Part shown: positions 8,137 through 61,254 of the stretch, piece after piece
How positions within the stretch are numbered: position 1 is the first letter of the stretch
Layout of the letters: each line of letters starts with the position of its first letter
Assembly: GCA_964477745.1 (NCBI GenBank)
Contig: CAYZEI010000001.1
Span: 64,393 to 128,392, forward strand
Source: an uncultured Candidatus Saccharibacteria bacterium
GTDB taxonomy: Bacteria > Patescibacteriota > Doudnabacteria > UBA920
DNA: 64,000 nucleotides
Reading direction: 5' to 3'
Notes under the pieces: generated by a model
Databases searched by the model: none
The model's input: the letters and a program-made list of their open reading frames with translations, nothing else
What the model was told of the DNA's origin: nothing
Program-made: the position numbers and the translations under genes

Positions 8137-8637
8137 CTAGCGGGTAATACATATTGGCGGATTTCCAACAGAAGATTCAACTGTGTAAGCACAAACTGTA
8201 ACTCTGCCAGTAGTTGCATCTTTAAATACATGATAGCCTGTATCATAAGAAGTCGGACTAACATAAGCAGCCACTGCAGGTGTTGTTGTGCTTGGATCAA
8301 AAGGCAAAGCTGAAATATAGGTCGGTACCAAACATGGAGCAATATCATATCCGGCAGAATTACCCATCCTTGTTGCTGCTGTCGGGATATCAGTTGTACA
8401 ACCAGTCCCTGTAAACACTCCTTTATTGTCAGCCATCCTTTGTCCGACTGCATTTAAAATTGCATTTACATTGCTTGTTCTTTGAGTATTTCTGGATAAA
8501 GCAAATTGTCTCGCCGGGTTAATGGCGATTAATACGATTACCGCCAAAATGGCAATAATACCGATAACCACCAAAATTTCAATAAGGGTAAACCCTTCTT
8601 GCTTTGAAGCTAAAAGCTTCTTCATATTTTTAGTCAT
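8137..8637 (-). CDS. Type IV pilin (prepilin; KQEG/FTLIEILVV class III signal)
   Basis: Prepilin leader ending in Gly followed by FTLIE and hydrophobic helix; own promoter region, likely major pilin; true start may be internal ATG at 8625. Confidence 0.8.
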   Translation of the reverse strand: MTKNMKKLLASKQEGFTLIEILVVIGIIAILAVIVLIAINPARQFALSRNTQRTSNVNAILNAVGQRMADNKGVFTGTGCTTDIPTAATRMGNSAGYDIAPCLVPTYISALPFDPSTTTPAVAAYVSPTSYDTGYHVFKDATTGRVTVCAYTVESSVGNPPICITR

Positions 8638-9829: not shown

Positions 9830-11314
9830 CTACTGCATCTTTAATATCTTCAAACCTTCTTGAGATTTAATGGCCAAATAAACCAAGCCGTTCTGGTAAA
9901 CAATCCCGGCGCCGGCGCCGGACAGCGATGCGGTGGTACAGGCTGCGGGTATGGATGCCGGGGATGACACGTTATACACCTGGAAACCCACAAACGACAG
10001 ACTGCTGGCCACAAAGGCATAGTTCCCGGAAACGGTAATCCCGTTAGCCGCGTAACTTAAAGTCTTGGCACCAAGCTTGGTTAAGATCGGCGCGGCAGAA
10101 TTATCTAATACATAAAAGCCACGCGGGAGCACTGAACCTCCAACCGGCCCCGGGGACGTTCCTAAATAAAACTTTCCTCCGGAAAAATAAAGTGACTGCC
10201 CACCGGCTGCACCAAGATCGCTAAATTGCGTGGCAAACACAGGAGCACCACTTGCGATGTTTAAAACAATTTCCTGAGCGGCACTGCTATTCACTGCCAA
10301 GTAAGCATAATCTCCCCGAACATATATGGCATTTACTCTGGAGCCGACTTCATAAGACCCTCCGCTCACCAACACCGGACTGCCGGGCACGGTGGCATCT
10401 ACCACAAAAAATTCCGGTCCGACTGAATTATTCTCGGTAGCGATATAAACATAGTCATGATTATTGTTAGGGTTTTTGTAGTACACAATAGCGGTAGCTG
10501 GCATAGCATTTCCGGGCAAAGCAAAAGTCGAGCCGGAAATAATTGAAGCCGATCCCGGAACGGTGACATCTGCTATTTGAAATTGTCCGGTGCTTTTGGC
10601 CGTAGCTAAATAGGAATAAATATGTGGACCAACTGTTGCCGTATCAACCGCATTTACGCTACCACTGCCCGTGGACAAAGATTTTAAAACACTTGGAGAC
10701 TGAAAATTATTTGCGTCAACTACATAAAAATCGTCTCCCGAAGAGGCACTCGGTCTAACGGCTAAATATACCGTATTACCGATTACATCCAAACCGTTTG
10801 CAAAACTCCCGCTGGGCAAATTTAACGGACTTCCTGTTGTTTGAATGCTGGGACAAGTCGCCGGTGGCGCAGAGTTAGGACCGCACCCGCCTTGAGCCAC
10901 ACACTGATTCAAATTAACCAGGGTGCTGGATAGCACAACATTTTGGTTGCGCCCGTCAATTACCCACGAGACCGTTTCCGTAACATTTTTTACATCGCTA
11001 GAAACGTCTATCACACTCAATGAGCAACTATAATCCATTGCCGTCCCACAAGCATATGCCGAAATATTTTTAATCCCGTCAAAATTGGTCTGAGCCAAGG
11101 AACGAAAACTTTCCACGGCTTCTTGGGCAATTTGTAAGGCCTCATTGTTGCGCTGTGAGTCCACAGAAATGGATTGGTTGCCAAAAGCCAGGGTCGCTAC
11201 TCCGCCTAAACTAATGGAAAAAATTGAAAAGGCAATCAGCATTTCCAAAGTTCCATATCCCGCCAGTTTTGAGTTTTTTTGATTATTCATTTGCTTTACA
11301 TTAAAATTATTCAA
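9830..11314 (-). CDS. Large pilin-leader protein with LVIVD-type beta-propeller repeats (putative pilus tip/adhesin)
   Basis: AGYGTLEMLIAF prepilin-like N-terminus; repeated YAYLAV / YVYIAT / GPEFFVVDATVPGSP motifs typical of LVIVD repeats. Confidence 0.55.
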   Translation of the reverse strand: MNNFNVKQMNNQKNSKLAGYGTLEMLIAFSIFSISLGGVATLAFGNQSISVDSQRNNEALQIAQEAVESFRSLAQTNFDGIKNISAYACGTAMDYSCSLSVIDVSSDVKNVTETVSWVIDGRNQNVVLSSTLVNLNQCVAQGGCGPNSAPPATCPSIQTTGSPLNLPSGSFANGLDVIGNTVYLAVRPSASSGDDFYVVDANNFQSPSVLKSLSTGSGSVNAVDTATVGPHIYSYLATAKSTGQFQIADVTVPGSASIISGSTFALPGNAMPATAIVYYKNPNNNHDYVYIATENNSVGPEFFVVDATVPGSPVLVSGGSYEVGSRVNAIYVRGDYAYLAVNSSAAQEIVLNIASGAPVFATQFSDLGAAGGQSLYFSGGKFYLGTSPGPVGGSVLPRGFYVLDNSAAPILTKLGAKTLSYAANGITVSGNYAFVASSLSFVGFQVYNVSSPASIPAACTTASLSGAGAGIVYQNGLVYLAIKSQEGLKILKMQ

Positions 11315-11320
11315 AATATA

Positions 11321-11779
11321 TTACCAATCCACTCTGCCGTTTGCCCCAATGACAATGGAAGTGCTTCGCTTCCCGTCACCAAGTGTAATTGTCCCGGCGC
11401 CGGCAACCACATTCCCCGACACTTGAGCAAATACTATTTCTCCCGGACTGCTGTGGTTTATGTAAGTATCGGCAGGAATTACTTGATCTTGAGAATTGGC
11501 GCCTCCATAACCGGAGCGGTCAAAAAGAATATACTTATCGTTTTCAAAATATACCCCATGAGCAGTTTGACCAAGATTGTTTAAACTTTTACTGCGGGCT
11601 TTTTGTAAAATTGAAACCAGCGTGTCGCGTTCGGAATTAAAGGCATAAGAGCGGTAAAGATCTAAAGTTACCAACAAACCCAAAGTGGCGAGTACAGACA
11701 TAATTCCCATCACCACTAAAAGTTCAATTATGGTAAATCCTTTAATCTCCCTTGCGGGTTGATAATTAAAAATTCTCAT
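11321..11779 (-). CDS. Prepilin-type pseudopilin (KGFTIIELLVV)
   Basis: Class III signal motif. Confidence 0.7.
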   Translation of the reverse strand: MRIFNYQPAREIKGFTIIELLVVMGIMSVLATLGLLVTLDLYRSYAFNSERDTLVSILQKARSKSLNNLGQTAHGVYFENDKYILFDRSGYGGANSQDQVIPADTYINHSSPGEIVFAQVSGNVVAGAGTITLGDGKRSTSIVIGANGRVDW

Positions 11780-47492: not shown

Positions 47493-48581
47493 CTACTTAT
47501 ACTCCCCCAAAATCACCGGCAATTCCAAAGTCTCACCGGAGCGTAAAATTTTGAAAGTCACTTGACTACCGGCCTGATATTTTTGAATAATTAAATCCAA
47601 TTCGTTGTTGTAACCTAATTTTTGTCCGTTAACCGCAATTACTATATCCCCCGCTTTAATTCCGGCCAGTGCTGCCGGCGTGTTTGGTGACACCGCGGAA
47701 ATAATTGCCCCGTCATCTACGGTTAAGTTATAAGTCAATTTACTTGCTTGATCTATAGTTTTAAATTGTACGCCTAAAAACGGCCGGGAAATTTTGCCAA
47801 AATCTTTTACCTGTTGTAAAGATTCTTTAACAATATTTATCGGGATAGAAAAATTTAAAGAATACCCGCCCGTGTCCATAAGGGTATTTAGCCCCACCAC
47901 CTCACCGGCCAAATTAATTAACGGCCCGCCACTATTACCGTTGCTAATGGCCGCGTCGGTTTGAATTAAATTATGGATGCGGGGAGCACTGCCGTCGGCC
48001 TCACTTAACGCCCGGCCCAACGCGGAAACTACTCCGCGAGTAACACTATTTTGATACCGCCCAAGCGAATTCCCAATGGCAAACACGGTTTGCCCGGTTT
48101 CTAGTGCGTCGGAATCCCCTAAGACAGCCGGAGTTAGTCCTGAACTCTCAATTTTTATAAATGCCACGTCGTCAAATTTGTCTAAAGCTAAAACTTTTGC
48201 CGGGAATCTTTTTCCGTCCGCCAAAATTACCCAATAATCCATATTTAAATCTTCCACCACATGATTATTGGTTACAATTAGCCCATTAGCTTCTAAAATA
48301 ATTCCGGTGCCGGAAATTTCCGTATTTACCGGCACACTAATACTCACACCAAACGAAGGGACGGTGGGCACGGATTTACTTAAACCTAAAATATTTACTA
48401 CCGAGGCTTTGGCTTTTCGCACGGCCAAAATGGCCTGTTGTTCATCGGTAATTCCAACGGCAGATTTTGCCCCCGGTTTAATCGGATTTAATTTTATATT
48501 CTGACTCACCGCCTGGTTTGAAAAAAAAATTATACTTAATACGGCAGTAGCTAAAATGATTTTTTTGTAATTTTGTATCAT
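47493..48581 (-). CDS. htrA: HtrA/DegP-family serine protease with PDZ domain
   Basis: TNNHVV His, GNSGGPL Ser motif, C-terminal PDZ. Confidence 0.85.
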   Translation of the reverse strand: MIQNYKKIILATAVLSIIFFSNQAVSQNIKLNPIKPGAKSAVGITDEQQAILAVRKAKASVVNILGLSKSVPTVPSFGVSISVPVNTEISGTGIILEANGLIVTNNHVVEDLNMDYWVILADGKRFPAKVLALDKFDDVAFIKIESSGLTPAVLGDSDALETGQTVFAIGNSLGRYQNSVTRGVVSALGRALSEADGSAPRIHNLIQTDAAISNGNSGGPLINLAGEVVGLNTLMDTGGYSLNFSIPINIVKESLQQVKDFGKISRPFLGVQFKTIDQASKLTYNLTVDDGAIISAVSPNTPAALAGIKAGDIVIAVNGQKLGYNNELDLIIQKYQAGSQVTFKILRSGETLELPVILGEYK

Positions 48582-48615
48582 AATCTTTAAATCTTTCTAT
48601 TTTTAAATCTTTAAA

Positions 48616-49542
48616 TTACTCTATCCCCAACTCCTGTAATTCCTCCAGCACCTGCCTGGTTGCTGCCATCCAATTAGGATTTTTAGGCTGAACATAAACA
48701 CCATTCATTTGTTCCAGTGTCCAATTACTGTAGCGTCTTTCCAATAACCGGTTAAAATCTTTTACCCAATCCCCTAAGGTGGCATATTTATGCCAGTATG
48801 GATGCCCGGGTTTAACCCCAATGTTGCTACAATTATTATCTACACAATTTCGGCCAAAAGTACTTTCCGCAAACGAAATGGCCAAAATTAATTTCCAATG
48901 TTTTTGTTCGGCAATAATGTCCGAGGCTTCCACAAACGGCGTTTTTTTAGCGGTTAAATAGGCGCGTAATTTTTCTTTCCGCAAAGCCATTCTTTCGGCT
49001 TCTTTTAACTGTTTGTTTTGTTCGGCAATGGAATTTAAATAATTTTCCAACTGACCAATGGTCATATTATACAACACGTCATTGGAGACATTGCTAATCG
49101 GGCCTAAGTTGCCAGTGTTTTGCATTGGGATTGAACCGGCCTGGGTTTGCTCAAAATCTTGGGCTGATGTTTTCTGAGTATTTAATGCTGTCCACGCGCC
49201 CCCGCCAAAGGCCACAATTAGCGCCACTATAATGGCGTACACTGGTACAGCTTTTTTTAAACTATTAAATTTTTTAAACTCAATTATAACCAGAGCTAGG
49301 TTATTTTTAAAAGCATAAAAGATGCCTGTAATTTTTTGTTGAGCCCTTTGCTGGATGCTATATGCCCCGCCTGCAGTCGCCTGAGGCTCCAGCTGATGGC
49401 GGGCAGGTATATGCTTGTTCCCAAGTTTCGGTGGCACTAAAAATTCGGTATAAAAAACTTCCACAGTAGGCTGTATTTTAACTTTAACAATGGGCTTTAA
49501 AGTCTTTGGCTTGGTTTTATTTATCCCGTCTAAGTTTCTCAT
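48616..49542 (-). CDS. Membrane-anchored putative peptidoglycan glucosaminidase-like protein; carries in-frame palindromic element
   Basis: C-terminal ...LAISFAESTFGRN...NIGVKPG resembles glucosaminidase domain; element A copy at 49364..49406. Confidence 0.4.
   Translation of the reverse strand: MRNLDGINKTKPKTLKPIVKVKIQPTVEVFYTEFLVPPKLGNKHIPARHQLEPQATAGGAYSIQQRAQQKITGIFYAFKNNLALVIIEFKKFNSLKKAVPVYAIIVALIVAFGGGAWTALNTQKTSAQDFEQTQAGSIPMQNTGNLGPISNVSNDVLYNMTIGQLENYLNSIAEQNKQLKEAERMALRKEKLRAYLTAKKTPFVEASDIIAEQKHWKLILAISFAESTFGRNCVDNNCSNIGVKPGHPYWHKYATLGDWVKDFNRLLERRYSNWTLEQMNGVYVQPKNPNWMAATRQVLEELQELGIE
49364..49406. repeat. In-frame palindromic element type A, copy 2
   Basis: 41/43 identity with 20926..20968; read on opposite strand yet remains in-frame. 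Confidence 0.7.
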
Positions 49543-49559
49543 TGGTCTTTTAAAAAGTT

Positions 49560-50309
49560 TTACGCCGATCTAATGTCCGCGTGTTTTTTATGATAAGGCC
49601 GTCCAAATAACACTGTCCACAAATAATTTAAACCATAGCGAAGCGGAGTGGCAAAAAATCCTTCTGCTCTCACTCTTCGGCCGGAAGCAAATATGGGCAA
49701 GCTTAAAGTAAACAACACATTCCCCACTTTATTCATGCGCTTGGCAATGTCCGCGTCTTCACCATAAAAATCAAACCCTTCGTTAAATCCGCCAATCTGC
49801 TCTAGTGCACTCCGCCGTAATACAAAGTTTCCGCCCTGTACCATAGAAGCGTTACGCAACACGAATCGATTAAACCAATACAACCCGTACACTATATAAT
49901 AGTAAACCGATACTCCGCGGTTAAACCAATTCGGCATATCGTAAAATACGTGCGGTCCACTTAAACAAACCAGATTGGGTTTTTCGTTATAAAATTTTTC
50001 TACGGTCTCGATCCAACCTTTAGGCATAATTGTGTCGGCATCTAAGTTGGCCACTAAATCCCCGGTTGCCACTTTAAAGCCGGCTTGGCGGGCGTAACTT
50101 ATACCTTTTTTTGGTTGATCCACCACTTTTACCTGCTTATAGCTTTGAGCAATATTTTTAGTCTGGTCAGTGCTGGCGTTGTTAACTACAATAATTTCAC
50201 CGGCAATATTTTTGCCTGCGGTTTCTTTAATTATAGAGTCTAAACAAAGTTTCAGATTATTTTCTTCGTTGTATGCCGGAATAACAAAACTTATTTTAAG
50301 GTTGTTCAT
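49560..50309 (-). CDS. Family 2 glycosyltransferase
   Basis: ISFVIPAYNEE...DAD motifs. Confidence 0.8.
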   Translation of the reverse strand: MNNLKISFVIPAYNEENNLKLCLDSIIKETAGKNIAGEIIVVNNASTDQTKNIAQSYKQVKVVDQPKKGISYARQAGFKVATGDLVANLDADTIMPKGWIETVEKFYNEKPNLVCLSGPHVFYDMPNWFNRGVSVYYYIVYGLYWFNRFVLRNASMVQGGNFVLRRSALEQIGGFNEGFDFYGEDADIAKRMNKVGNVLFTLSLPIFASGRRVRAEGFFATPLRYGLNYLWTVLFGRPYHKKHADIRSA

Positions 50310-50393
50310 TTATCTATTATAGCCCAACAAGGCAATCCTTTACAACTACCAATAGTTTGCTATGCTTTATAAACAATAATTAAAATCCATACT

Positions 50394-50822
50394 ATGCCTA
50401 AAGGATTTATTGCAAAAATTGAATTTACGATTAACGCAACACCGGAAAAAGTTTGGGAAGCTTTAACTAAGCCGGAAATAGTAAAAGAGTACTTATTTGG
50501 CACCAATTTGGTAACTGATTGGGTTGTTGGCGGGCCAATTAGCTACCAAGGTGAATGGGAAGGCAAGCCTTACGAAGACAAAGGAACGGTCTTGGAATTT
50601 ACTCCACCTTCCAAAATAGTTTCCACTTACTGGTCCAGTATGGGCGGTTTGCCGGATGCGCCGGAAAACTACAACACTTTAACTTACGAGTTGGAAAGTG
50701 TGGATGGTGGCACCAAGCTTACCCTCCTGCAAGATAATAACTCCACCGAAGAAAAACGAGACCACAGTCAGCAAAACTGGACCTTGGTGCTAAATAAAAT
50801 GAAAGAGATTTTGGAGAAATAA
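50394..50822 (+). CDS. SRPBCC (AHSA1/START-like) domain protein
   Basis: PEKVWEALTKPE motif. Confidence 0.65.
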   Translation: MPKGFIAKIEFTINATPEKVWEALTKPEIVKEYLFGTNLVTDWVVGGPISYQGEWEGKPYEDKGTVLEFTPPSKIVSTYWSSMGGLPDAPENYNTLTYELESVDGGTKLTLLQDNNSTEEKRDHSQQNWTLVLNKMKEILEK

Positions 50823-52914: not shown

Positions 52915-52990
52915 ACCGGCGACTGGACAATTCGCGCGAATTGTCCAGTCGCCAAAATACGTAAGTGATGGGATATGTCCCCATTCACAT
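52915..52990 (+). repeat. Direct repeat copy 1 containing 36-nt perfect palindrome GGCGACTGGACAATTCGCGCGAATTGTCCAGTCGCC (52918..52953)
   Basis: Seen directly; partner at 53330..53412. Confidence 0.8.
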
Positions 52991-53066: not shown

Positions 53067-53282
53067 ATGAAGCAAATGACATGTGCCCAAATGGGCGGAC
53101 CTGCAGAGTGTAGCTTTACGCTCTCCGGCAACACTGCCGAAGAAATGGTTAAAAACGGCTTTGACCACGTAATGCAAGCACACCCTGAAATGGGACAAAA
53201 GATTCAAAGCAACAGTCCGGAAGAAAATGAAAAATGGATGGCTGGCTTTCGAGCCACATTCGACGCCATCCCGGAAATGTAA
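53067..53282 (+). CDS. Small DUF1059-like protein (MKQMTCAQMGGPAEC...)
   Basis: AGGAG RBS; extended -10 TGGTAAAAT upstream; terminator 53296..53325. Confidence 0.5.
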   Translation: MKQMTCAQMGGPAECSFTLSGNTAEEMVKNGFDHVMQAHPEMGQKIQSNSPEENEKWMAGFRATFDAIPEM

Positions 53283-53329: not shown

Positions 53330-53412
53330 ATCAGCGCTGGACAATTCGCGCGAATTGTCCAGTCGCCAAAATACGTAATTAAATATGAGGTTAATGGGCC
53401 ATGTCCCCATTT
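53330..53412 (+). repeat. Direct repeat copy 2 with 34-nt near-perfect palindrome (53334..53367)
   Basis: Shares palindrome + AAAATACGTAA...ATGTCCCCATT with copy 1. Confidence 0.8.
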
Positions 53413-53456: not shown

Positions 53457-54098
53457 CTATTGTTTTTTAGGAGACTCGGAATACTCTTCTATTGTTTTAT
53501 CCTGAACAGAGTCAACTTTAAAAAAGGGTGTTTTTTTGCCTTGTTGATCTTCTGCATCTACAACTGTGCCAACAATTTGGTATTCTCGAGTTCCTTTTAG
53601 ACCAGAACCTTTAGGGTCTTCCTTTAAGAAGACATATTGCGATTCACCACCATCTGCGATCATATCTATACTAGGGGAATTGGGCTCAGGATTAGCACGT
53701 AATTTAAAGAAATCCGTTCTTGTAACGACGGTTTTCGTATAATATACTCGGGAATTGCCAATCAGAGCACTGTCTAATTCAAAACGTTTTACATCTTTAG
53801 GACCAAGGTATGTTGGGATGCCCCTAGTTTTTATATAACCTTTATCGCGGTAAGCATTTAAACCGTTATTAACTAAGTCTTCCACTTTTGTCTCCGGCAT
53901 TTGTTCTATTTCTTTTCGAGAAATACCGCACGCAGCCATTGCCAAACCTAATCCCGCAGTTAAAACCAATCGTTGAAAACGGCTCCAAAACTTAGCCACT
54001 TGCGGATTGTTGAGTGACTCTCTTAATTCTTTATTTCCTGGTATTTCGGAAGCCGTTTGGGATTGCTCCGTATTTTGAGATGGATATTTTTCACTCAT
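53457..54098 (-). CDS. Putative lipoprotein, unknown function
   Basis: Signal/TM segment with LAMAACG lipobox-like motif. Confidence 0.45.
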   Translation of the reverse strand: MSEKYPSQNTEQSQTASEIPGNKELRESLNNPQVAKFWSRFQRLVLTAGLGLAMAACGISRKEIEQMPETKVEDLVNNGLNAYRDKGYIKTRGIPTYLGPKDVKRFELDSALIGNSRVYYTKTVVTRTDFFKLRANPEPNSPSIDMIADGGESQYVFLKEDPKGSGLKGTREYQIVGTVVDAEDQQGKKTPFFKVDSVQDKTIEEYSESPKKQ

Positions 54099-54330
54099 AT
54101 AATATTTTTAATTAGCTTAATCTTAACACACAGTAATTATATGGAAAAGAGAGTTAAAGACGCTATACGAAATGTTTAAAAGATAATGAGGACATGACCA
54201 ATTTTATTTCAAACAAAAAAACTCCACCCGGATGGGTGAAGTTTTTTGTGGTAGTCTTTTATAAATAGAATCTAAACACCTTTATGAAGAAAATACAATA
54301 ATGAACAACGGTGATACTAGTCTTAAATAG

Positions 54331-55287
54331 TTAGCCATTTTCAAACATATCCTTGTTTGCCCTAAAATTTTCTGGCCATTTATGTTTTAAAGTGGCAACT
54401 ATGGAAGACTTTAAATTAAAATCGTTTGTTTCAAAATAATCACGAACCAAAATTGCCAACTGCTCATTTTCTTCATTATCCTTTGAAATCCCCAAAGCTG
54501 CCAATACCCTTAGTGATTCATTCCCAAAAGCCCTTTCAATATCCCTTAAGTGCATCATTTCTCCTGTAAACAAACCCCTTTTGAATCTCTCCCATACTTT
54601 TTCGGGGTTCTCATTTTTTATTTCAGCAACCTTACCTATAATAACACCTATAGTTTCAACATAATAATCATAAATGTCTAACACTTTGGGAATCCCTTTA
54701 GGCTCAAGCTTTAACTCGGAAACTAATTCTTCTTCATGTTTATGATATAGTTCGTTTTCGAGTTTGGTAGTTATGGCTTCAACAAAACCATCAAAATGTG
54801 AATGTTTGTCTTTTGGATGCTCAATTCCATACCCCACTCTGTACTGTTTTAGGCTCTGCTCTTTTAGAGAAGCAAAATATTTCTGGTGTGATAAAGCGTG
54901 AATTGTTTCGTGAATTATTGTTGAACAAATATCTAATTCATCCCAGCCTTCAAAAGTATCATCATAAACATATATTCCGTCTTCTGGTAAACTCTTATAA
55001 AAAGCAACTGTTTTATGATTAGGAAAATGCTGTGCAAATACAGTAGGCTTCAAAAAATGAAATCTGTGAGGGGGGAACGGCGCAATAGTGGCAATCCCCA
55101 ATTTTTTAAACTCATCTTGCAAATACAAATTCACTAACTCAATCAGCTTTAATTGTTTCTGAGTTTTTTTTGTTTCTCCCTCCAAAATTTTAGCGCCTAC
55201 TTCTTTTTTTCTATCAATCTCTTCCCGCACGGCTTTTTCTAGTTCGGGATGAATGTCTTTGCCAACCAGGCCGTATTCTTTACTCAT
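54331..55287 (-). CDS. Hypothetical protein with HExxH motif (IIHETIHALSH)
   Basis: Possible zinc-dependent hydrolase; otherwise no recognised domain. Confidence 0.45.
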   Translation of the reverse strand: MSKEYGLVGKDIHPELEKAVREEIDRKKEVGAKILEGETKKTQKQLKLIELVNLYLQDEFKKLGIATIAPFPPHRFHFLKPTVFAQHFPNHKTVAFYKSLPEDGIYVYDDTFEGWDELDICSTIIHETIHALSHQKYFASLKEQSLKQYRVGYGIEHPKDKHSHFDGFVEAITTKLENELYHKHEEELVSELKLEPKGIPKVLDIYDYYVETIGVIIGKVAEIKNENPEKVWERFKRGLFTGEMMHLRDIERAFGNESLRVLAALGISKDNEENEQLAILVRDYFETNDFNLKSSIVATLKHKWPENFRANKDMFENG

Positions 55288-55298
55288 TTTTAATCCTT

Positions 55299-55514
55299 TT
55301 AATTTTTGATTAAGCGATTATACGAAGATTTTATTAACCTATAATCTAAGTAGATAAAACCAATTGCTATTAATATACTCGTGGCGTTAGCACCTATCGA
55401 TTCAGCACCGTCTATAGGGTAAAAAGTTAATACTGAAAACATAACAAAAATGGTTAAAGCGATTAAAATAATCGATGTTGAGTAGAAAATTATTTGATTA
55501 TAGATATTTTTCAT
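55299..55514 (-). CDS. Small two-TM membrane protein
   Basis: Hydrophobicity only. Confidence 0.3.
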   Translation of the reverse strand: MKNIYNQIIFYSTSIILIALTIFVMFSVLTFYPIDGAESIGANATSILIAIGFIYLDYRLIKSSYNRLIKN

Positions 55515-55698
55515 ATTTTAGATATTAATTTTTACATATCCAGTATATACCTAAGCCAAATCGTTGTAAATAAAGCTTATATAAGGGATTCATGGGGAAA
55601 TTTTACCCTTGAAAAATTTGAGCATTTATGGTAGAATATCAAAAGTTATTCGTTTATAGTGTCATCTTCTATAATTGATGCATAAACTTACTAATCAT

Positions 55699-55773
55699 GG
55701 CGCTATCATCTAACGGTTAGGATAAGTGGTTTTCATCCACTAAATCGGGGTTCGATTCCCCGTAGCGCTACCA
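55699..55773 (+). tRNA. tRNA-Glu (anticodon UUC), CCA encoded
   Basis: Anticodon loop TTTTCAT, T-loop GGGGTTCGATTCCCC, acceptor pairing. Confidence 0.85.
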
Positions 55774-55897
55774 CTAACAACCTCATTCCCCGGAATGGGG
55801 TTTTTAGTTTGCTTTTATCGGTAAAGGAATGGTTTTCTAAAATTTTGGCATGATTGTAGCATTTCTTAATTAGGCCTATAATTAAGGTAAATTAGTT

Positions 55898-57028
55898 TTG
55901 ATTCTTATTTTACAATCTACAATGCCTACAAAAAAATATAAAATAATACTTGATACAAATTTTATATGGAATGACCAAAATAACGGATTGGGAGTTATTT
56001 TTAGTGAACATCTTAATCAACTATCTGCATTTATAAAAAAACATGATTTGATGGCTTCTGTACAGATCTGTTTGCCGGAAATGGTCATCAAGGAGAGGGT
56101 TGCCCAGAAAGTCCGTAAGGCTGATGAATTTAGAAGAAATAGCATGCTAGCATTAAAAAGTTTAGAAACAATAAACCTAAAAGTTGGAAATAAAAAATTT
56201 GAAATAATCGACCTTGAAAAAGCATTTAAAAAAAAGGCTGCGGATATAGTAAGTACCAATAATATTGAAGTAATACCAATCCCCAAAATTAAAAATCATG
56301 ACATTATTAATCGTTCGTTAAGAAAGATTCCCCCTTTTTCGAAAAAAAATACTGATTCAGGCTATAAGGATACAATTATTTGGCTATCTATTTTGGAGGA
56401 TGCAAAAAAGTCAAAAGATTTTGAATATATTTTTTGCACAGAAAATACAAATGATTTTATAATCCCAGAATGCGCAGATGAATTTAAAAAAATTACAAAA
56501 ATCAATATTGAATTTGTAAATAATTTAGATGAGCTAAAATTATTTTTAGACAAGGAGCTAATTTTAAATTTAGAGCTTAAAAAACTTAATGAGCGTATAA
56601 CCGATGAGATAAAACAACATTTGGGAAATCTAAACATTGAATTTAATAAATTTGTTAGAAAAGAACCCGACCCTTTCCCACGAAATCCTTATACATCATT
56701 AAGGGCTTTTGATTCTATTTTAGGAGAAGAAAATAAAGGCGCAATTAAAGGTTATAATGTTTTAAATTTTGCACCAACTAACATTGACCAAAAAAATAAA
56801 TATCAATTTAGCATTGAGGGGGACTTAATGGTTGAAGAGGTATTTGATAATTCAAAAAATGAACCCTTTTTGGTTTATAGGCCTAGTTTTGGGGTAGATA
56901 CTAAGCCTATTACAACGCAGTGGCGCACGCACTTTATATGGAATGATCAAAATAAAACTTTTACTTCATTATTTACAAATCGGCCTTACCCGCCGGTGGG
57001 AATGGCACACTCTTGGGGAATGATTTAA
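55898..57028 (+). CDS. PIN-like-domain protein (DUF4935-like), 376 aa, very AT-rich
   Basis: N-terminal KYKIILDTNFIW PIN-like start; ORFan-like composition next to tRNA. Confidence 0.5.
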   Translation: MILILQSTMPTKKYKIILDTNFIWNDQNNGLGVIFSEHLNQLSAFIKKHDLMASVQICLPEMVIKERVAQKVRKADEFRRNSMLALKSLETINLKVGNKKFEIIDLEKAFKKKAADIVSTNNIEVIPIPKIKNHDIINRSLRKIPPFSKKNTDSGYKDTIIWLSILEDAKKSKDFEYIFCTENTNDFIIPECADEFKKITKINIEFVNNLDELKLFLDKELILNLELKKLNERITDEIKQHLGNLNIEFNKFVRKEPDPFPRNPYTSLRAFDSILGEENKGAIKGYNVLNFAPTNIDQKNKYQFSIEGDLMVEEVFDNSKNEPFLVYRPSFGVDTKPITTQWRTHFIWNDQNKTFTSLFTNRPYPPVGMAHSWGMI

Positions 57029-57099
57029 TACAAAACACTAATTCAATGAATCATGGATAACCAATCAATAATCAACATTTTAAAGTTAACTAAATTCTA

Positions 57100-58608
57100 A
57101 TGACAACACTCTCAACAAAAAATGTATATTCTATAGGTTTAATATCCCTTGTTTTAGGGCTGGCTTTTACCTATTTATTTTTTGACAAAGTGCCGGGAAT
57201 TTCATTGGTAATTTATGTGGCACTAATACTGTCCGGGCTGTTTGGATTACTGACGTATTTTAAAATACAAAACCGTAAAATTATTGCCTATTATTTATTG
57301 CCCCTGTTATTTTATTCCTTTATGGTCAGCGTGCAAGACAATGAATTTTTAACTTTCTTTAATTTTGTAATGACTTTGGGTTTGCTTATGCTATTGTCCA
57401 GCCATTTAGTCGGGCAAAGCGTTAAAAATTTCTTAATTTTGGATTATGCCAAAACTGCTGTACTATTACCGCTAAAAATTATTGGCAATGCATTTAACGG
57501 TTTAGTGAGAATGCTTTCCGTTGGCAAAAACATAAAAGACAACCAACACTCATCCCAAATAGTAAAAGGGGTGCTATTTACCGTGCCCATTGTAATATTC
57601 TTTTTACTGCTCTTTAGTTCCGCGGATTTAGCGTTTAACCATTTTGTTTCCGGCCTGTTTAATTTCAATTTTAATTTAGACGAAAACACCATTCCTCAAA
57701 TTTGGTGGACGGGAATTTTTACTTTTGTGTGGCTTGGCGCCGGTACATACATTTTAGAAAATTCAGATGGTAGCGAGATCGTGGAAGTAGTGGAAAAAGT
57801 ACCCACTTACCGATTTGGGAATATTGAAGCGGGCATTCTTTTTACTACGCTCAATGTTCTGTTTTTAACTTTTGTAATAGTGCAAATAAAATATTTGTTT
57901 GCCGGGCACAGTGCTATTACGGCTTTAGGTTTTACTTACGCCGATTACGCCCACAAAGGCTTTGGGGAATTAGTGACTGTTGCCTTGTTTACTTTTGGAA
58001 TAATTTTTCTGGCAGATGTATATATAGAGAGAAAAGAAAACAGATCCGGAGTTCTGTTTAAAAGCCTAACCGGCTTGCTAATAATTTTAGTGCTGGTAAT
58101 TATTGCTTCGGCTTTTACTCGGCTAAATATTTACGAACAAGCCTATAGTTTTACGCGCCAAAGAATTTTAGTGCAAGGCTTTATTCTGTGGCTGGCTGTG
58201 GTGTTTTTATGGCTAAGCTATAAAATTATGTTTGGCACGAAAACCAGACAATTTATTTTTGGTATATTTTTGTCTGTTATTGCTTTCTTTGTAGTATTTA
58301 ATTTATTTAATCCCGATGCCTTTATTGCCAAAAAAAATATTGCTAAAGATTTGAGCACCGGCAGACTAGATACCAAATATTTATCCATTCTGTCGGCCGA
58401 CGCCATTCCAGAACTTGTTCCTCTACTTAATATGCCAATGGCTAAAGACATATACGGCAATCCCCTGCCTCACGAAGTGGCTGTGGTTTTAAAAAATTAT
58501 CATGACACAAACCTTACGCAGTCTTGGCAATCCTATAACTTTTCCCGCGCCAGGGCTAAAAATATAATTAACAATAACTGGGATTTAATTTCCAAATTAG
58601 CCCAGTAA
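57100..58608 (+). CDS. Polytopic membrane protein (~12 TM), unknown function
   Basis: Hydrophobicity pattern. Confidence 0.5.
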   Translation: MTTLSTKNVYSIGLISLVLGLAFTYLFFDKVPGISLVIYVALILSGLFGLLTYFKIQNRKIIAYYLLPLLFYSFMVSVQDNEFLTFFNFVMTLGLLMLLSSHLVGQSVKNFLILDYAKTAVLLPLKIIGNAFNGLVRMLSVGKNIKDNQHSSQIVKGVLFTVPIVIFFLLLFSSADLAFNHFVSGLFNFNFNLDENTIPQIWWTGIFTFVWLGAGTYILENSDGSEIVEVVEKVPTYRFGNIEAGILFTTLNVLFLTFVIVQIKYLFAGHSAITALGFTYADYAHKGFGELVTVALFTFGIIFLADVYIERKENRSGVLFKSLTGLLIILVLVIIASAFTRLNIYEQAYSFTRQRILVQGFILWLAVVFLWLSYKIMFGTKTRQFIFGIFLSVIAFFVVFNLFNPDAFIAKKNIAKDLSTGRLDTKYLSILSADAIPELVPLLNMPMAKDIYGNPLPHEVAVVLKNYHDTNLTQSWQSYNFSRARAKNIINNNWDLISKLAQ

Positions 58609-58629
58609 CCCTTATTAATTAAAAAACAT

Positions 58630-59130
58630 ATGAACAAAAATACTTTGGGTTTGGAATTTTTAAGAGTCTTAGAAGAAGAGCTAACAGCCAGTCGCAAGTG
58701 CTTGGAAAGAATCTCCGAAAACTTATTTGACTACAAACCTCACGAAAAATCTATGGGCATGGGCTATTTAGCACTGCTTGTTGCGGAAATGCCTTTATGG
58801 ATTGAGCAAATGGTAGAAGTCGGGGAAATAAATTTTGTGACTTTTAAACATACCCAACCAAAAACCACCGCAGAGTTGGTTGCCCACTTTGACGAGAATA
58901 TGGCCAAGGTCAAAAAATCTTTGAGCACGGTAACGGACGAAAATTTGCAAAAAACTTTTACTTTAAAATCCGGGGAACAAGTACTAATGAGTATGAAAAT
59001 AAATGAAAGCATAAGTTCCACCATTCGTCACTGGGTTCACCATCGTGGCCAACTGACTGTCTACATGCGCCTAAATAACATCCCGGTACCGTCTATTTAC
59101 GGCCCGACCGCGGATGAGGCGGGTTTTTAG
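58630..59130 (+). CDS. DinB/YfiT-family four-helix-bundle protein
   Basis: C-terminal HWVHHRGQ motif. Confidence 0.7.
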   Translation: MNKNTLGLEFLRVLEEELTASRKCLERISENLFDYKPHEKSMGMGYLALLVAEMPLWIEQMVEVGEINFVTFKHTQPKTTAELVAHFDENMAKVKKSLSTVTDENLQKTFTLKSGEQVLMSMKINESISSTIRHWVHHRGQLTVYMRLNNIPVPSIYGPTADEAGF

Positions 59131-59195
59131 CACCCTGATTATTTAAATATTAAAACACCCCGATTAAACGGGGTGTTTTTGTCTTGTTGGTAGTA

Positions 59196-59711: not shown

Positions 59712-60302
59712 ATGAATATAACTGCCGCAAAATTTGTAAAAGGCATTGTGGGTCCGGACGAATCTTTGGACGACGGCATTCCGCAAATTGCTTTTATCGG
59801 CCGGTCCAATGTGGGCAAGTCCAGCGTAATTAACACCCTGGCTAACCGCAGGGATTTGGCGCGCACCAGCTCCATGCCCGGACGAACTCAGCAAATTAAT
59901 TTATTTTTACTTTCCGCTAAAGGCGGAAGCACAATGAGCTCTTTTTACTTGGTTGACTTGCCCGGCTATGGTTTTGCCAAAGCTTCCAAAGACACCCAAG
60001 AACAAATCCAAAAATTAATTTACTGGTATTTTTTTGAATCTGACTACCAGCAAAAAAAAGTGGTCCTAATTATAGACGCCAACATTGGCGCCACCAACAG
60101 CGACATGGAAATGCTTTACAGCTTAAAAGATAGGAATAAGGATGTGGTAATTGTAGCCAACAAAATCGACAAAATGAAAAAGAATTCCCTGGTGGCTCAA
60201 ATTAAAGAAATTCAAACCTCCGTCGGCAACTGCAAGGTAATCCCCTACTCCGCGGAAAAACGCATCGGTATAAACGAGTTGGCAAACGAAATTTCTAAGT
60301 AG
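59712..60302 (+). CDS. engB: GTP-binding protein EngB/YihA
   Basis: GRSNVGKSS G1 motif, DLPGYG G3. Confidence 0.85.
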   Translation: MNITAAKFVKGIVGPDESLDDGIPQIAFIGRSNVGKSSVINTLANRRDLARTSSMPGRTQQINLFLLSAKGGSTMSSFYLVDLPGYGFAKASKDTQEQIQKLIYWYFFESDYQQKKVVLIIDANIGATNSDMEMLYSLKDRNKDVVIVANKIDKMKKNSLVAQIKEIQTSVGNCKVIPYSAEKRIGINELANEISK

Positions 60303-60399
60303 CCTAAAGTTTTACTATTTACAAGTATTTATCCCGCTCTTTGGAAACAAAGAGCGGGATTTTTGCATTGTTAAAAGTTTGGGCATACAATATAGGTAT

Positions 60400-61254
60400 A
60401 TGAATAAAAAGTATCCAAAAATTGGTTTAGCTTTAAGTGGTGGCGCAGCCTTAGGAATTGCCCATGTCGGCGCCCTGCAAGCCTTGGCTGATCATAATGT
60501 CCCCATTAGCTACCTGTCAGGGACCAGTGCCGGGGCAGTGGTTGCCGCAGGTTTGGCCTTTGGTCTGACCCCGGAGCAAATGTCCGAACGGGCCAAAAAC
60601 TTAAGCTGGTACAAACTCTCCAATATTTCCTACTCCCGCATGGGTTTAATTACCACTCAAGGCGTGGGTAATATGATGAAAGAAATTTTAGGCGATGTAA
60701 ACATTGAAGACGCCAAAATCCCGTTGGCAATTGTCGCCACCAATATTGAAAATGGTGAGGCAATAATTTTTAAAAAAGGAAGCGTGGCAGAAGCAGTAAT
60801 GGCCAGCGTGTGCATTCCCGGATTATTTGTTCCCACCGAGTATCAAGGAAAAAAATTAGTTGACGGCGGTTTGGTAAAAAATCTCCCGCTTTCGTTACTG
60901 GATGAAATGGGTGCAGAATTCACCATTGGTGTGAACTTAGCCCGTTGGCGAACATATAAAAAACCAAATAACTTATTGGATGTTATGATTAGCGCCCTGG
61001 ATATTTTAACCCATAAGCAAACGAATTTGGATGCCTTACAGGCGGATATGATTATTGAACCCCACCTGGAACAATTTTCCGCTTCGGACTTTAAAAAAGC
61101 CGCGGAACTAATTACCGAAGGCTACCGGGCAACAATCTTAGCCTTGCCGGCCTTAACCGATTCAATTTCCCAAACCAATAAAACTCAACAACCCGAAACA
61201 AGCCTATGGCAAAAATTCTTATCAATTTTTAAAAGTAAATCTAAAAATATATGA
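60400..61254 (+). CDS. Patatin-like phospholipase
   Basis: GGAALG oxyanion motif and GTSAG nucleophile elbow, DGG catalytic Asp. Confidence 0.8.
   Translation: MNKKYPKIGLALSGGAALGIAHVGALQALADHNVPISYLSGTSAGAVVAAGLAFGLTPEQMSERAKNLSWYKLSNISYSRMGLITTQGVGNMMKEILGDVNIEDAKIPLAIVATNIENGEAIIFKKGSVAEAVMASVCIPGLFVPTEYQGKKLVDGGLVKNLPLSLLDEMGAEFTIGVNLARWRTYKKPNNLLDVMISALDILTHKQTNLDALQADMIIEPHLEQFSASDFKKAAELITEGYRATILALPALTDSISQTNKTQQPETSLWQKFLSIFKSKSKNI

What the first reader, a model, noticed from the sequence alone, without database searches (positions are those of the whole stretch)
55699..59130. tRNA-Glu-adjacent AT-rich block: PIN-like protein + 502-aa polytopic membrane protein + DinB-family protein
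Directly downstream of tRNA-Glu the GC drops to ~30%. The block encodes a 376-aa protein with a PIN-like N-terminus (KYKIILDTNFIW), a ~12-TM membrane protein with no recognisable family, and a DinB/YfiT four-helix-bundle protein. tRNA-flanked, compositionally distinct blocks with predicted nuclease and membrane components are typical of defence or accessory islands. The PIN-like protein also has a striking internal repeat: FIWNDQN occurs near both termini (55959..55981 and 56934..56956, ~22/23 nt identical).
Basis: inference. Interest (0 to 1): 0.55.

Follow-up and report, generated by a model that had tools for sequence, protein, structure and literature searches.

The report
Strain-specific PIN nuclease gene beside tRNA-Glu
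In a tiny uncultured bacterium (Candidatus Doudnabacteria), one stand-alone PIN-type nuclease gene sits in a gene-swapping slot between a tRNA gene and a conserved membrane-protein gene; it is probably an ordinary accessory or anti-phage gene and not part of a three-gene island.

Summary
All the described features exist: tRNA-Glu at 55699-55773, then three + strand genes. These are a PIN_12/DUF4935 nuclease (55922-57028), a membrane protein (57100-58608) and a DinB protein (58630-59130). The 22/23-nt in-frame repeat inside the PIN gene is also real.

They are not one island. The membrane protein belongs to Pfam DUF4153. It is widespread in Patescibacteria, has host-like composition, and lies beside tRNA-Glu in three close relatives. 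Only the 1.29 kb between the tRNA's CCA end and about 35 nt before the DUF4153 start (55774-57064) is swapped. One relative carries an unrelated 56-aa plus 337-aa gene pair there, another a 271-aa gene, and a third has nothing.

DinB is a second, separate replacement with host-like GC. The window holds no integrase and no copy of the tRNA 3' end.

The PIN gene has the lowest GC3 of 47 ORFs. It keeps the acidic residues D11, E58 and D150, models as a VapC-like PIN domain plus an NTF2-like C-terminal domain, and has no antitoxin partner. Distant relatives often lie inside type I restriction-modification operons (8 of 30 loci).

Best reading: a single-gene accessory nuclease, plausibly anti-phage and Cosus-like. 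It is a new member of a known kind, of modest interest.

The parts
55609..55637 (+). Promoter-like site upstream of tRNA-Glu (TTGAAA-17-TAGAAT with TG).
   Evidence: Consensus scan. It lies in the short stretch that is conserved with relatives L088 and L184 (window 55598-55646 and 55606-55773).
55699..55773 (+). tRNA-Glu (anticodon TTC). It forms the left anchor of the variable slot.
   Evidence: ARAGORN and Rfam. It is 100% identical to the tRNA in L088. Similarity to all five relatives stops exactly after the CCA end.
55779..55802 (+). Terminator-like hairpin plus T-run directly after the tRNA. It is part of the variable segment.
   Evidence: Four of the five relatives compared (L088, L009, L093 and the window itself, but not L010) have a differently sequenced hairpin at this place.
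55774..57064 (+). Variable cassette of 1,291 nt: terminator, leader with a TATAAT box, the PIN_12 gene and about 35 nt of trailer.
   Evidence: blastn against L088 finds no similarity here, although the flanks are 96% and 91% identical. Junctions were resolved by alignment. The corresponding L088 segment (1,540 nt) encodes unrelated 56-aa and 337-aa proteins. The TATAAT box was read directly from the sequence.
55922..57028 (+). PIN_12 / DUF4935 protein: 368 aa from the ATG, or 376 aa from the TTG at 55898. It has an N-terminal PIN nuclease domain, a helical linker and a C-terminal beta-sheet (NTF2-like) domain.
   Evidence: Pfam PF16289. D11, E58 and D150 are invariant in 19 homologues. The AlphaFold model has pLDDT 75.5. 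Foldseek matches VapC2 3zvk with probability 1.00, plus NTF2-like folds. GC is 30.1% and GC3 0.245.
55961..55983 (+). Copy 1 of the intragenic direct repeat (TTTATATGGAATGACCAAAATAA, encoding FIWNDQN).
56933..56955 (+). Copy 2 of the intragenic direct repeat (TTTATATGGAATGATCAAAATAA), 972 nt downstream and in frame.
   Evidence: The 57%-identical homologue has FIYYDQSY and FVWNDRDK at these two places.
57100..58608 (+). DUF4153 polytopic membrane protein: about 12 transmembrane helices plus a C-terminal helical domain. It is a conserved core gene and the right anchor of the slot.
   Evidence: Pfam PF13687, E 1.8e-75. 207 homologues, with source names (where given) spanning many Patescibacteria lineages and a smooth identity gradient. 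It is 91% nt identical in L088 and L184. The model has pLDDT 80.9 and no PDB fold match.
58630..59130 (+). DinB-family four-helix-bundle protein. It is a separate accessory replacement with host-like composition.
   Evidence: Pfam PF05163. GC is 41.5% and GC3 0.458. Similarity to L088 and L184 ends a few nt after the DUF4153 stop. Relatives carry CNNM, with or without other genes, here instead.
59152..59179 (+). Strong terminator-like hairpin after DinB. It is the only one between the PIN gene and the next gene.
54331..55514 (-). The upstream half of the AT-rich trough: a 318-aa HExxH protein (54331-55287) and a 71-aa membrane peptide (55299-55514).
   Evidence: Neither has a Pfam, PADLOC or PHROG hit. 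The 318-aa protein has a positional counterpart in L184 that is only 27% identical.

Best explanation
The window comes from a Candidatus Doudnabacteria (Patescibacteria) genome.

Locus structure:
- tRNA-Glu and the DUF4153 membrane-protein gene are conserved neighbours.
- The short interval between them is a gene-turnover slot.
- In this strain the slot holds one self-contained cassette (55774-57064) that encodes a stand-alone PIN_12/DUF4935 protein.
- DinB, on the far side of DUF4153, is an independent accessory replacement.
- The three genes may be read through as one transcript here, but they are not a conserved functional system.

How the cassette was probably acquired (inferred):
- It was most likely exchanged by recombination that uses the conserved flanks, not by an integrase.

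Probable function (inferred):
- The protein is most likely a metal-dependent nuclease. Its PIN active site uses D11, E58 and D150.
- The C-terminal NTF2-like domain probably controls or targets the nuclease.
- It probably acts alone as an accessory toxin-like or anti-phage (abortive-infection) factor, as reported for the PIN12-domain integron cassette Cosus.

The repeat (inferred):
- The 23-nt in-frame repeat is best explained as a short intragenic conversion or template-switch patch that made two already weakly similar strand motifs identical.

What is shown and what is inferred:
- Shown: the anatomy, the family assignments, the fold, the composition, the presence/absence pattern and the family's neighbourhoods.
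- Inferred: nuclease activity, a defence role and the exchange mechanism.
For: Slot boundaries:
- L088 has DUF4153 at 93% aa and 91% nt identity. Its positions 8342-8425 match window 55689-55773, and 9966-11517 match 57065-58613, with no similarity in between.
- The junction falls exactly at the tRNA CCA end and about 35 nt before the DUF4153 ATG.

Occupants of the slot in relatives:
- L088 carries a 56-aa plus 337-aa pair.
- L184 (EngB 96% aa identical) carries a 271-aa gene, and its tRNA is inverted.
- L093 has nothing between the tRNA and DUF4153.
- In L010 the tRNA is followed by an MNT/HepT toxin-antitoxin pair.
- The occupants are not homologous to one another.

Core flanks:
- The conserved flanks are window 47571-50822, plus EngB, cupin, the 178-aa gene and TsaD, at 80-86% nt identity.

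Composition:
- PIN has the lowest GC3 of 47 ORFs.
- PIN_12 genes are more AT-rich than their flanks in 31 of 32 loci (mean -7.1 points, Wilcoxon p 5e-9).

Fold and family:
- Foldseek gives VapC2 3zvk probability 1.00, the PIN-like 3i8o E 1e-3, and NTF2-like hits for the C-terminal domain.
- D11, E58 and D150 are invariant.
- The family has 5,036 representative clusters, mostly about 350 aa and matched over nearly the full profile length.
- The PIN gene is solitary here, with no flanking small ORF. This agrees with the literature note that DUF4935 genes are usually monocistronic (PMC5499597).

Defence association of the family:
- In 8 of 30 non-redundant metagenome loci, hsdS lies within two genes upstream.
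- In 4 loci, hsdR lies two genes downstream.
- AbiJ, BrxL/PglZ and Schlafen-type helicases also occur among the neighbours.
- Cosus (Brc24) is a PIN12-domain single-gene system giving full T7 resistance, and mutations in the domain weaken it (bioRxiv 10.1101/2024.07.02.601719).

Repeat:
- None of 500 codon shuffles reach 22/23. The homologue's two sites share only 13 of 24 nt by my count of the two stretches printed.
Against: - PADLOC has no significant model for this protein. The best hit is SduA at E 0.009.
- The closest homologues (57-31% identical, from candidate-phyla-radiation (CPR) type contigs) are not in restriction-modification or defence contexts. One sits inside a cell-wall (mur) gene cluster.
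- The restriction-modification association comes from distant relatives with 25-39% identity.
A tblastn search of plasmids found only distant actinobacterial PIN genes, so relatedness to Cosus rests on the domain name alone.
- Low GC is a family-wide trait, so it does not by itself prove recent transfer here.
- No recombination scar, integrase or att site shows how the cassette moved.
- PIN, DUF4153 and DinB have no predicted terminator between them, so co-expression cannot be excluded.
Confidence: 0.6

Rival explanations
1. This is the first reader's model: a classical tRNA-integrated genomic or defence island. The whole block 55699-59130 (PIN plus membrane protein plus DinB) entered as one mobile element by site-specific integration into tRNA-Glu.
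For: - A tRNA lies at one edge, and the PIN gene is AT-rich.
- The region is variable among relatives.
- All three genes lie on one strand with a single terminator at the end.
Against: - No part of the tRNA 3' end recurs anywhere in the 64 kb, even when 2-7 mismatches are allowed.
- No integrase or recombinase domain occurs in any ORF from 50.8 to 59.7 kb.
- DUF4153 is 91% nt identical and in the same position in relatives that lack PIN and DinB, and it has host-like GC3.
- DinB is host-like in composition.
- There are three independent breakpoints, not two.
Confidence: 0.04
2. PIN, DUF4153 and DinB form a functional three-gene operon in this strain. For example, a membrane sensor or anchor could control a nuclease effector, with DinB as an accessory enzyme.
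For: - The genes share a strand, with gaps of 71 and 21 nt.
- No terminator-like site lies between them, and a strong one follows DinB.
Against: - In every other PIN_12 locus examined, the neighbours are unrelated to DUF4153 and DinB.
- DUF4153 homologues have many different neighbours.
- Relatives keep DUF4153 with other upstream and downstream genes.
- The three genes differ in composition.
Confidence: 0.06
3. The PIN_12 protein is not a defence factor. It would instead be a selfish or solitary toxin-like RNase, or a dispensable RNA-processing or turnover nuclease, that drifts through accessory slots.
For: - No PADLOC or PHROG hit.
- The nearest CPR-type homologues lie among ordinary genes, including a mur cluster.
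- The literature lists the function of DUF4935 as unknown (PMC5499597).
Against: - The family is strongly enriched next to type I restriction-modification genes and other defence genes.
- A PIN12-domain protein has been shown experimentally to protect against phage.
- The same slot and its surroundings carry toxin-antitoxin and restriction-modification genes in relatives.
Confidence: 0.28
4. The 23-nt repeat is a coincidence of AT-rich codon usage acting on two peptide motifs that are similar by chance or by structural constraint. No conversion event took place.
For: - Given identical amino acids, identical codons are not very improbable in this codon-biased gene (my estimate is about 0.1).
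- Homologues already share an F-[IV]-x-x-D pattern at both sites.
Against: - None of 500 codon shuffles reach 22/23.
- A shared 7-residue peptide that includes Trp is expected at roughly 1e-4 per protein (my estimate).
- In the 57% homologue the two sites share only 13 of 24 nt by my count, so the identity arose in this lineage.
Confidence: 0.15

Closest known systems
DUF4935 / Pfam PF16289 'PIN_12' proteins (VapC-like group of the PIN-like superfamily; Matelska et al. 2017, PMC5499597)
   Same: - It matches the whole Pfam model.
- It has the family's length of about 350-370 aa.
- It has an N-terminal PIN-like domain with conserved acidic residues and helical inserts.
- Its C-terminal alpha/beta region has no sequence-detectable solved relative.
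- It is a solitary (monocistronic) gene.
   Different: - It belongs to a small, divergent clade found on CPR-type (Patescibacteria) contigs.
- Only 7 hits came from the single-sequence search.
- Identity is 57% or less to everything except identical copies.
- It carries the intragenic 23-nt repeat, which its homologues lack.
Cosus (Brc24), a single-gene anti-phage integron cassette with a PIN12 domain (bioRxiv 10.1101/2024.07.02.601719)
   Same: - It is a stand-alone protein with a PIN12-type domain.
- It is carried as a small single-gene cassette in a variable slot.
- An N-terminal Asp/Thr motif is conserved here (D11-T12), and mutations T12A and D14A weaken Cosus.
   Different: - There is no integron, attC site or integrase here.
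- The host is a Patescibacterium, not a proteobacterium.
- No activity data exist for this protein.
VapC toxins of VapBC type II toxin-antitoxin systems
   Same: It has the PIN fold (Foldseek probability 1.00 to VapC2 3zvk) and the acidic active-site residues.
   Different: - It is nearly three times longer and has an extra C-terminal domain.
- It has no upstream VapB-type antitoxin gene.
- It is not detectable by sequence against solved PIN structures.
Accessory defence genes embedded in type I restriction-modification operons, and core-gene-anchored defence hot spots
   Same: - Distant family members sit between hsdS and hsdR.
- In this lineage a fixed pair of conserved anchors (tRNA-Glu and DUF4153) brackets unrelated cassettes in different strains.
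- Toxin-antitoxin and restriction-modification genes lie nearby in relatives.
   Different: - This window has no restriction-modification genes at the locus.
- The slot holds one or two genes or none, not a large island.
- Several of the alternative occupants have no recognisable defence domain.

Membership tests
PIN_12 / DUF4935 (PF16289) | Pfam model matched above the gathering score over its full length | tested here: met
   71.4 bits against a cutoff of 32; model positions 1-172 of 172; residues 16-187 of the 376-aa ORF.
PIN_12 / DUF4935 (PF16289) | Conserved acidic residues of the PIN active site | tested here: met
   D11, E58 and D150 are invariant in 19 aligned homologues. E187 is also invariant but I did not assign it to the active site. 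T12, N13 and D145 are conserved in at least 90%. Their spatial clustering in the model was not measured.
PIN_12 / DUF4935 (PF16289) | Two-part architecture of about 350 aa: PIN-like N-terminal half plus an alpha/beta C-terminal region | tested here: met
   In the AlphaFold model, a PIN-type alpha/beta domain occupies roughly the first 200 residues, helices 202-247, and four long strands 275-353. Most of the best 150 representatives are about 350 aa and match nearly the full profile length.
PIN_12 / DUF4935 (PF16289) | PIN (VapC-like) three-dimensional fold | tested here: met
PIN_12 / DUF4935 (PF16289) | Nuclease activity | not testable with these tools
   Needs biochemistry.
VapBC type II toxin-antitoxin system | Small antitoxin gene immediately upstream, co-transcribed with a toxin of about 130-150 aa | tested here: not met
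   Upstream lie a tRNA and its terminator. There is no small ORF in 55774-55921 or in 57029-57099, and the protein is 368 aa.
Cosus (Brc24) defence cassette | Sequence or profile relatedness to Brc24 | not tested
   The sequence is not held. Only the shared domain name 'PIN12' is available. tblastn of plasmids gave only actinobacterial hits.
Cosus (Brc24) defence cassette | Integron cassette context (attC site, integron integrase) | tested here: not met
   There is no integrase. By eye, the 71-nt trailer shows no attC-like imperfect inverted repeat, and half of it is conserved DUF4153 leader. No dedicated attC model was run.
Cosus (Brc24) defence cassette | Protection against phage | not testable with these tools
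   Needs an experiment.
Integrase-mediated tRNA-integrated genomic island | Direct repeat of the tRNA 3' end at the distal boundary | tested here: not met
   No match to the last 17-30 nt of the tRNA with 2-7 mismatches anywhere in the window. The only recurrence of 13 nt or more from the tRNA-plus-flank probe is a chance-level 13-mer, taken from the flank downstream of the tRNA, that recurs at 59788.
Integrase-mediated tRNA-integrated genomic island | Integrase or recombinase gene next to the tRNA | tested here: not met
   No such Pfam domain occurs in any ORF between 50.8 and 59.7 kb. None was seen within 8 kb in L088 either. L184 has an IS200-type Y1 transposase.
Integrase-mediated tRNA-integrated genomic island | The whole block is absent from related genomes and compositionally distinct | tested here: not met
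   This holds only for the PIN cassette. DUF4153 is present at 91% nt identity in relatives and has host-like GC3.
DUF4153 (PF13687) | Pfam model matched above the gathering score | tested here: met
   254.9 bits against a cutoff of 27; model positions 3-372 of 373.
DinB family (PF05163) | Pfam model matched above the gathering score | tested here: met
   48.2 bits against a cutoff of 23; model positions 1-156 of 165. The metal-binding His triad was not checked structurally.

The most novel reading that the evidence does not exclude
The interval between tRNA-Glu and DUF4153 is a dedicated defence-cassette hot spot of Doudnabacteria. Single genes or gene pairs would be swapped there by recombination on the conserved flanks after DNA uptake, with no integrase involved.

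The Patescibacteria clade of PIN_12 proteins would be a one-protein abortive-infection nuclease whose NTF2-like C-terminal domain senses infection.

The unannotated occupants of the same slot in sister strains (56-aa plus 337-aa membrane pair; 271-aa protein) would then be new defence genes.

A more speculative add-on: the 23-nt in-frame direct repeat lets the toxic nuclease be deleted (972 nt) by slippage or recombination, acting as an off switch.
Probability: 0.2. Interest if true: 0.5.

Novelty: new member of a known kind. Interest (0 to 1): 0.3.

Why it matters
Patescibacteria (CPR) have tiny genomes. To my knowledge few recognised anti-phage systems have been described in them apart from restriction-modification. 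A precisely bounded slot that carries different small cassettes in sister strains is a cheap way to find what these organisms use as accessory or defence genes. It also supplies testable candidates: this PIN_12 protein and the unannotated occupants of the slot in relatives.

The gain is incremental. The protein family is already catalogued, a member has already been tied to phage defence, and hot spots anchored by core genes are a familiar pattern.

The membrane protein and DinB are not part of an island.

Tried and rejected


Full report
**1. The observation**

ARAGORN and Rfam both place a tRNA-Glu (anticodon TTC) at 55699-55773 on the + strand. Three + strand ORFs follow:
- 55898 (TTG) or 55922 (ATG) to 57028
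- 57100-58608
- 58630-59130

Pfam assigns them as follows:
- ORF 1 is PF16289 PIN_12, formerly DUF4935. E is 1.6e-19 and the whole 172-position model is matched.
- ORF 2 is PF13687 DUF4153, E 1.8e-75.
- ORF 3 is PF05163 DinB, E 1.6e-12.

The statement that the membrane protein has no recognisable family is wrong.

The intragenic repeat is real. Copies at 55961-55983 and 56933-56955 are 22/23 identical and lie 972 nt apart in the same frame. None of 500 codon shuffles of the gene reached 22/23; the mean best match was 17.6 and the maximum 21.

**2. Composition**

The window averages 41.1% GC.

| Gene | GC | GC3 | GC3 z-score |
|---|---|---|---|
| PIN | 30.1% | 0.245 | -2.3 (lowest of 47 ORFs of at least 150 aa) |
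| DUF4153 | 36.2% | 0.365 | -0.6 |
| DinB | 41.5% | 0.458 | +0.8 |

The lowest-GC 1131-nt window in the whole 64 kb starts at about 55850, covering the PIN gene. DUF4153 is ordinary for a membrane protein, and DinB is host-like.

The trough is not confined to the downstream side of the tRNA. It starts near 54000 and includes two - strand genes upstream of the tRNA:
- a 318-aa HExxH protein (35.1% GC, GC3 0.30)
- a 71-aa membrane peptide (26.9% GC)

**3. Organism and relatives**

A scan of species-representative genomes with the EngB GTPase (59712-60302) returned Patescibacteria and Candidatus Doudnabacteria MAGs at 88%, 77% and 76% identity (L008, L009, L010).

The DUF4153 protein has 207 detectable homologues. 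Where sources name them, they come from many Patescibacteria lineages (Doudna-, Buchanan-, Giovannoni-, Kerfeld-, Uhr-, Peregrini-, Andersenbacteria). Identity falls smoothly: 93, 80, 62, 61, 59 ... 35%. That is the pattern of a vertically inherited gene.

Look-ups of the encoding contigs supplied three close relatives:
- L088: DUF4153 93% aa and 91% nt identical.
- L184: EngB 96% aa, DUF4153 93% aa, and 17.5 kb of the syntenic locus.
- L093: DUF4153 62% aa.

**4. The key result: a bounded swap**

L088 has tRNA-Glu(+), then a 56-aa membrane peptide and a 337-aa protein, then DUF4153. blastn aligns:
- L088 8342-8425 to window 55689-55773 at 96% identity (the tRNA itself is 100% identical)
- L088 9966-11517 to window 57065-58613 at 91% identity
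- nothing in between

Alignments of the junctions show three things:
- Similarity stops exactly after the tRNA's CCA end.
- Similarity resumes about 35 nt before the DUF4153 ATG.
- Similarity stops again a few nt after the DUF4153 stop codon.

The window segment 55774-57064 (1,291 nt) therefore corresponds to an unrelated 1,540-nt segment in L088. The window segment contains the tRNA terminator, a leader with a TATAAT box, the PIN gene and a short trailer.

Other relatives differ again:
- In L184 the tRNA and about 170 nt of its promoter region are inverted, and a 271-aa gene lies before DUF4153.
- In L093 the inverted tRNA lies 140 nt from DUF4153 with no gene between them.
- In L010 the tRNA is followed directly by an MNT nucleotidyltransferase plus HepT RNase toxin-antitoxin pair and a DinB_2 protein.
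- In L009 it is followed by unannotated small genes.

The occupants show no detectable mutual similarity.

**5. The wider locus**

L184 and L009 fix the conserved frame.
- On the left: HtrA-like protease, a 308-aa gene, a GT2 glycosyltransferase and AHSA1 (window 47571-50822, 80% nt identity to L184).
- On the right: EngB, cupin, the 178-aa membrane protein and TsaD (84-86% nt identity).

Between these, only tRNA-Glu, DUF4153 and a very diverged 318-aa HExxH gene (27% identity) are shared.

Downstream of DUF4153 the genomes differ:
- The window has DinB and a 77-aa gene.
- L184 has CNNM/CorC and an ornithine cyclodeaminase-like gene.
- L088 has an HTH protein and CNNM.

The variable parts of the relatives carry typical accessory and defence cargo:
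- L088 has type III restriction-modification (Mod plus Res), MazE, ParE/Phd, RadC, DUF3800 and a small GIY-YIG ORF. The GIY-YIG ORF is my reading of the sequence.
- L184 has Fic and an IS200-type Y1 transposase.

The neighbourhood is therefore a plasticity zone, but it is a mosaic with several breakpoints. It is not one inserted island.

**6. Tests for a classical tRNA island**

- No copy of the tRNA 3' end exists anywhere in the window, even with 2-7 mismatches. The only 13-mer recurrence (from the flank downstream of the tRNA) is at chance level and lies inside EngB.
- No integrase or recombinase domain occurs in any ORF of the variable zone.
- PADLOC and PHROGs give nothing.

The clean breakpoints at conserved sequences, with no scars, fit exchange by homologous recombination on the flanks. 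That mechanism is an inference.

**7. The PIN_12 protein**

The single-sequence search found only 7 homologues, all from uncultured CPR-type contigs. Apart from identical copies, the best were 57% and 56% identical. A profile search of 1.84 billion representatives found 5,036 clusters at E ≤ 1e-3 and 300 at E ≤ 1e-30. Most of the best hits are about 350 aa and match nearly the full profile length.

D11, E58 and D150 are invariant in 19 aligned sequences (E187 is too, though I did not assign it to the active site).

The AlphaFold model (pLDDT 75.5) has three parts:
- a PIN-type alpha/beta domain, roughly residues 1-200
- a helical linker
- four long C-terminal strands

Foldseek hits:
- the PIN-like domain 3i8o (E 1e-3)
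- VapC2 3zvk (probability 1.00)
- for the C-terminal part, NTF2-like folds: Tim44 C-domain, 3soy, Mtr2 and the CaMKII hub (E 0.007-0.05)

No solved structure is detectable by sequence.

The gene has no antitoxin-sized partner. This agrees with Matelska et al. 2017, who described DUF4935 as a PIN-like family of unknown function that is usually monocistronic and has an unassigned C-terminal region (PMC5499597).

**8. What the family does**

One experimental precedent exists. Cosus (Brc24) is a single-gene integron cassette with a 'PIN12' domain. It gives complete resistance to phage T7, and the mutations T12A, D14A and D96A weaken it (bioRxiv 10.1101/2024.07.02.601719).

I tested guilt by association. 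From 80 metagenome loci with PIN_12 relatives I took 30 non-redundant ones and scanned their 105 nearest neighbours, two genes on each side. The most frequent families:
- type I specificity subunits (8)
- ResIII (5)
- HSDR_N (4)
- SWI2/SNF2 (3) and T1R_D3-like (3)
- AbiJ domains
- BrxL and PglZ
- Schlafen-type helicases
- recombinases

Counted by locus, 8 of 30 have hsdS within two genes upstream, and 4 have hsdR two genes downstream. PIN_12 genes are also more AT-rich than their flanks in 31 of 32 loci, by 7.1 points on average (p 5e-9).

Caveats:
- These are distant relatives (25-39% identity).
- The nearest homologues sit in unremarkable contexts.
- The family is rare in viral contigs: 5 loci, plus one full-length BFVD match.

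**9. DUF4153 and DinB**

DUF4153 models well (pLDDT 80.9, pTM 0.77). It has about 12 transmembrane helices and a C-terminal helical domain. It has no fold match in the PDB and no useful literature. Its neighbours vary between genomes. Its function remains unknown, but it is a conserved core gene and not island cargo.

DinB is a unique sequence at the 90% identity level, is host-like in composition, and was not found at this locus in any relative.

**10. The repeat**

At the two sites, the 57%-identical homologue encodes FIYYDQSY and FVWNDRDK. The window encodes FIWNDQN at both.

The common sequence is a mosaic of N-site features (FI, Q) and C-site features (WN). Identity ends sharply at both edges.

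A short intragenic conversion or template-switch patch is the simplest explanation. Convergence or coincidence is less likely. No function is evident. A repeat-mediated 972-nt in-frame deletion is possible in principle and could be looked for in reads.

**11. Verdict**

It is flanked by a core membrane-protein gene and, beyond that, a second independent replacement (DinB). It is a new member of a known family in a known kind of genomic setting.

The same cassette is present at 100% identity in two other public assemblies, so it is not an assembly artefact.

Noticed in passing
window 52920-52951 and 53334-53378: A perfect 32-nt palindrome (CGACTGGACAATTCGCGCGAATTGTCCAGTCG) occurs at the first position. 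A second copy (29/32) follows with a shared 13-nt tail. The two copies flank the 71-aa DUF1059-like gene (53067-53282). The same palindrome occurs in relative L184 (3372-3403), and the 71-aa gene is inverted in L009. It could be a repeated terminator or a REP-like element that promotes rearrangement.
   Followed up: partly
window 60379-61254: A patatin-like phospholipase gene lies between EngB and the cupin gene only in this window. L184, L008 and L009 go from EngB directly to cupin or to the 178-aa gene. It is another strain-specific insertion, this one with host-like GC.
   Followed up: partly
window 54331-55287 (- strand); L184 5859-6785: The 318-aa protein has an HExxH motif (HETIHALSH) and no Pfam, PADLOC or PHROG hit. 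Its positional counterpart in L184 is only 27% identical, although the surrounding core DNA is 80-91% identical and the downstream terminator (54210-54254) is 96% conserved. It is either a very fast-evolving gene or an allelic replacement.
   Followed up: partly
window 55606-55773; L184 6871-7049; L093 3338-3412; L009 4733-4807: The tRNA-Glu gene (in L184 together with about 170 nt of its promoter region) is inverted in L184, L093 and L009 relative to the window, L088 and L010. The tRNA unit itself flips within the variable zone.
   Followed up: partly
L088 1-8340: The closest relative carries a defence and toxin-antitoxin cluster directly upstream of the same tRNA-Glu. It includes a type III restriction-modification system (N6_N4_Mtase plus ResIII), MazE, DUF3800, ParE/Phd, RadC and a small GIY-YIG ORF.
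   Followed up: partly
L128, L148, L167, L125 and other loci: Distant PIN_12 homologues are embedded between hsdS and hsdR of type I restriction-modification operons. They often sit with recurring small genes of about 210 aa and about 280 aa, which may be further embedded accessory genes.
   Followed up: partly
L001 446-1333: The gene directly upstream of the 57%-identical PIN homologue gives a weak PADLOC hit to the candidate system PDC-S42 (E 8.8e-5).
   Followed up: no
window 57100-58608: The DUF4153 protein gives a confident AlphaFold model but no structural match in the PDB. It is a widespread Patescibacteria membrane protein whose fold has no solved counterpart detectable by Foldseek.
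   Followed up: partly
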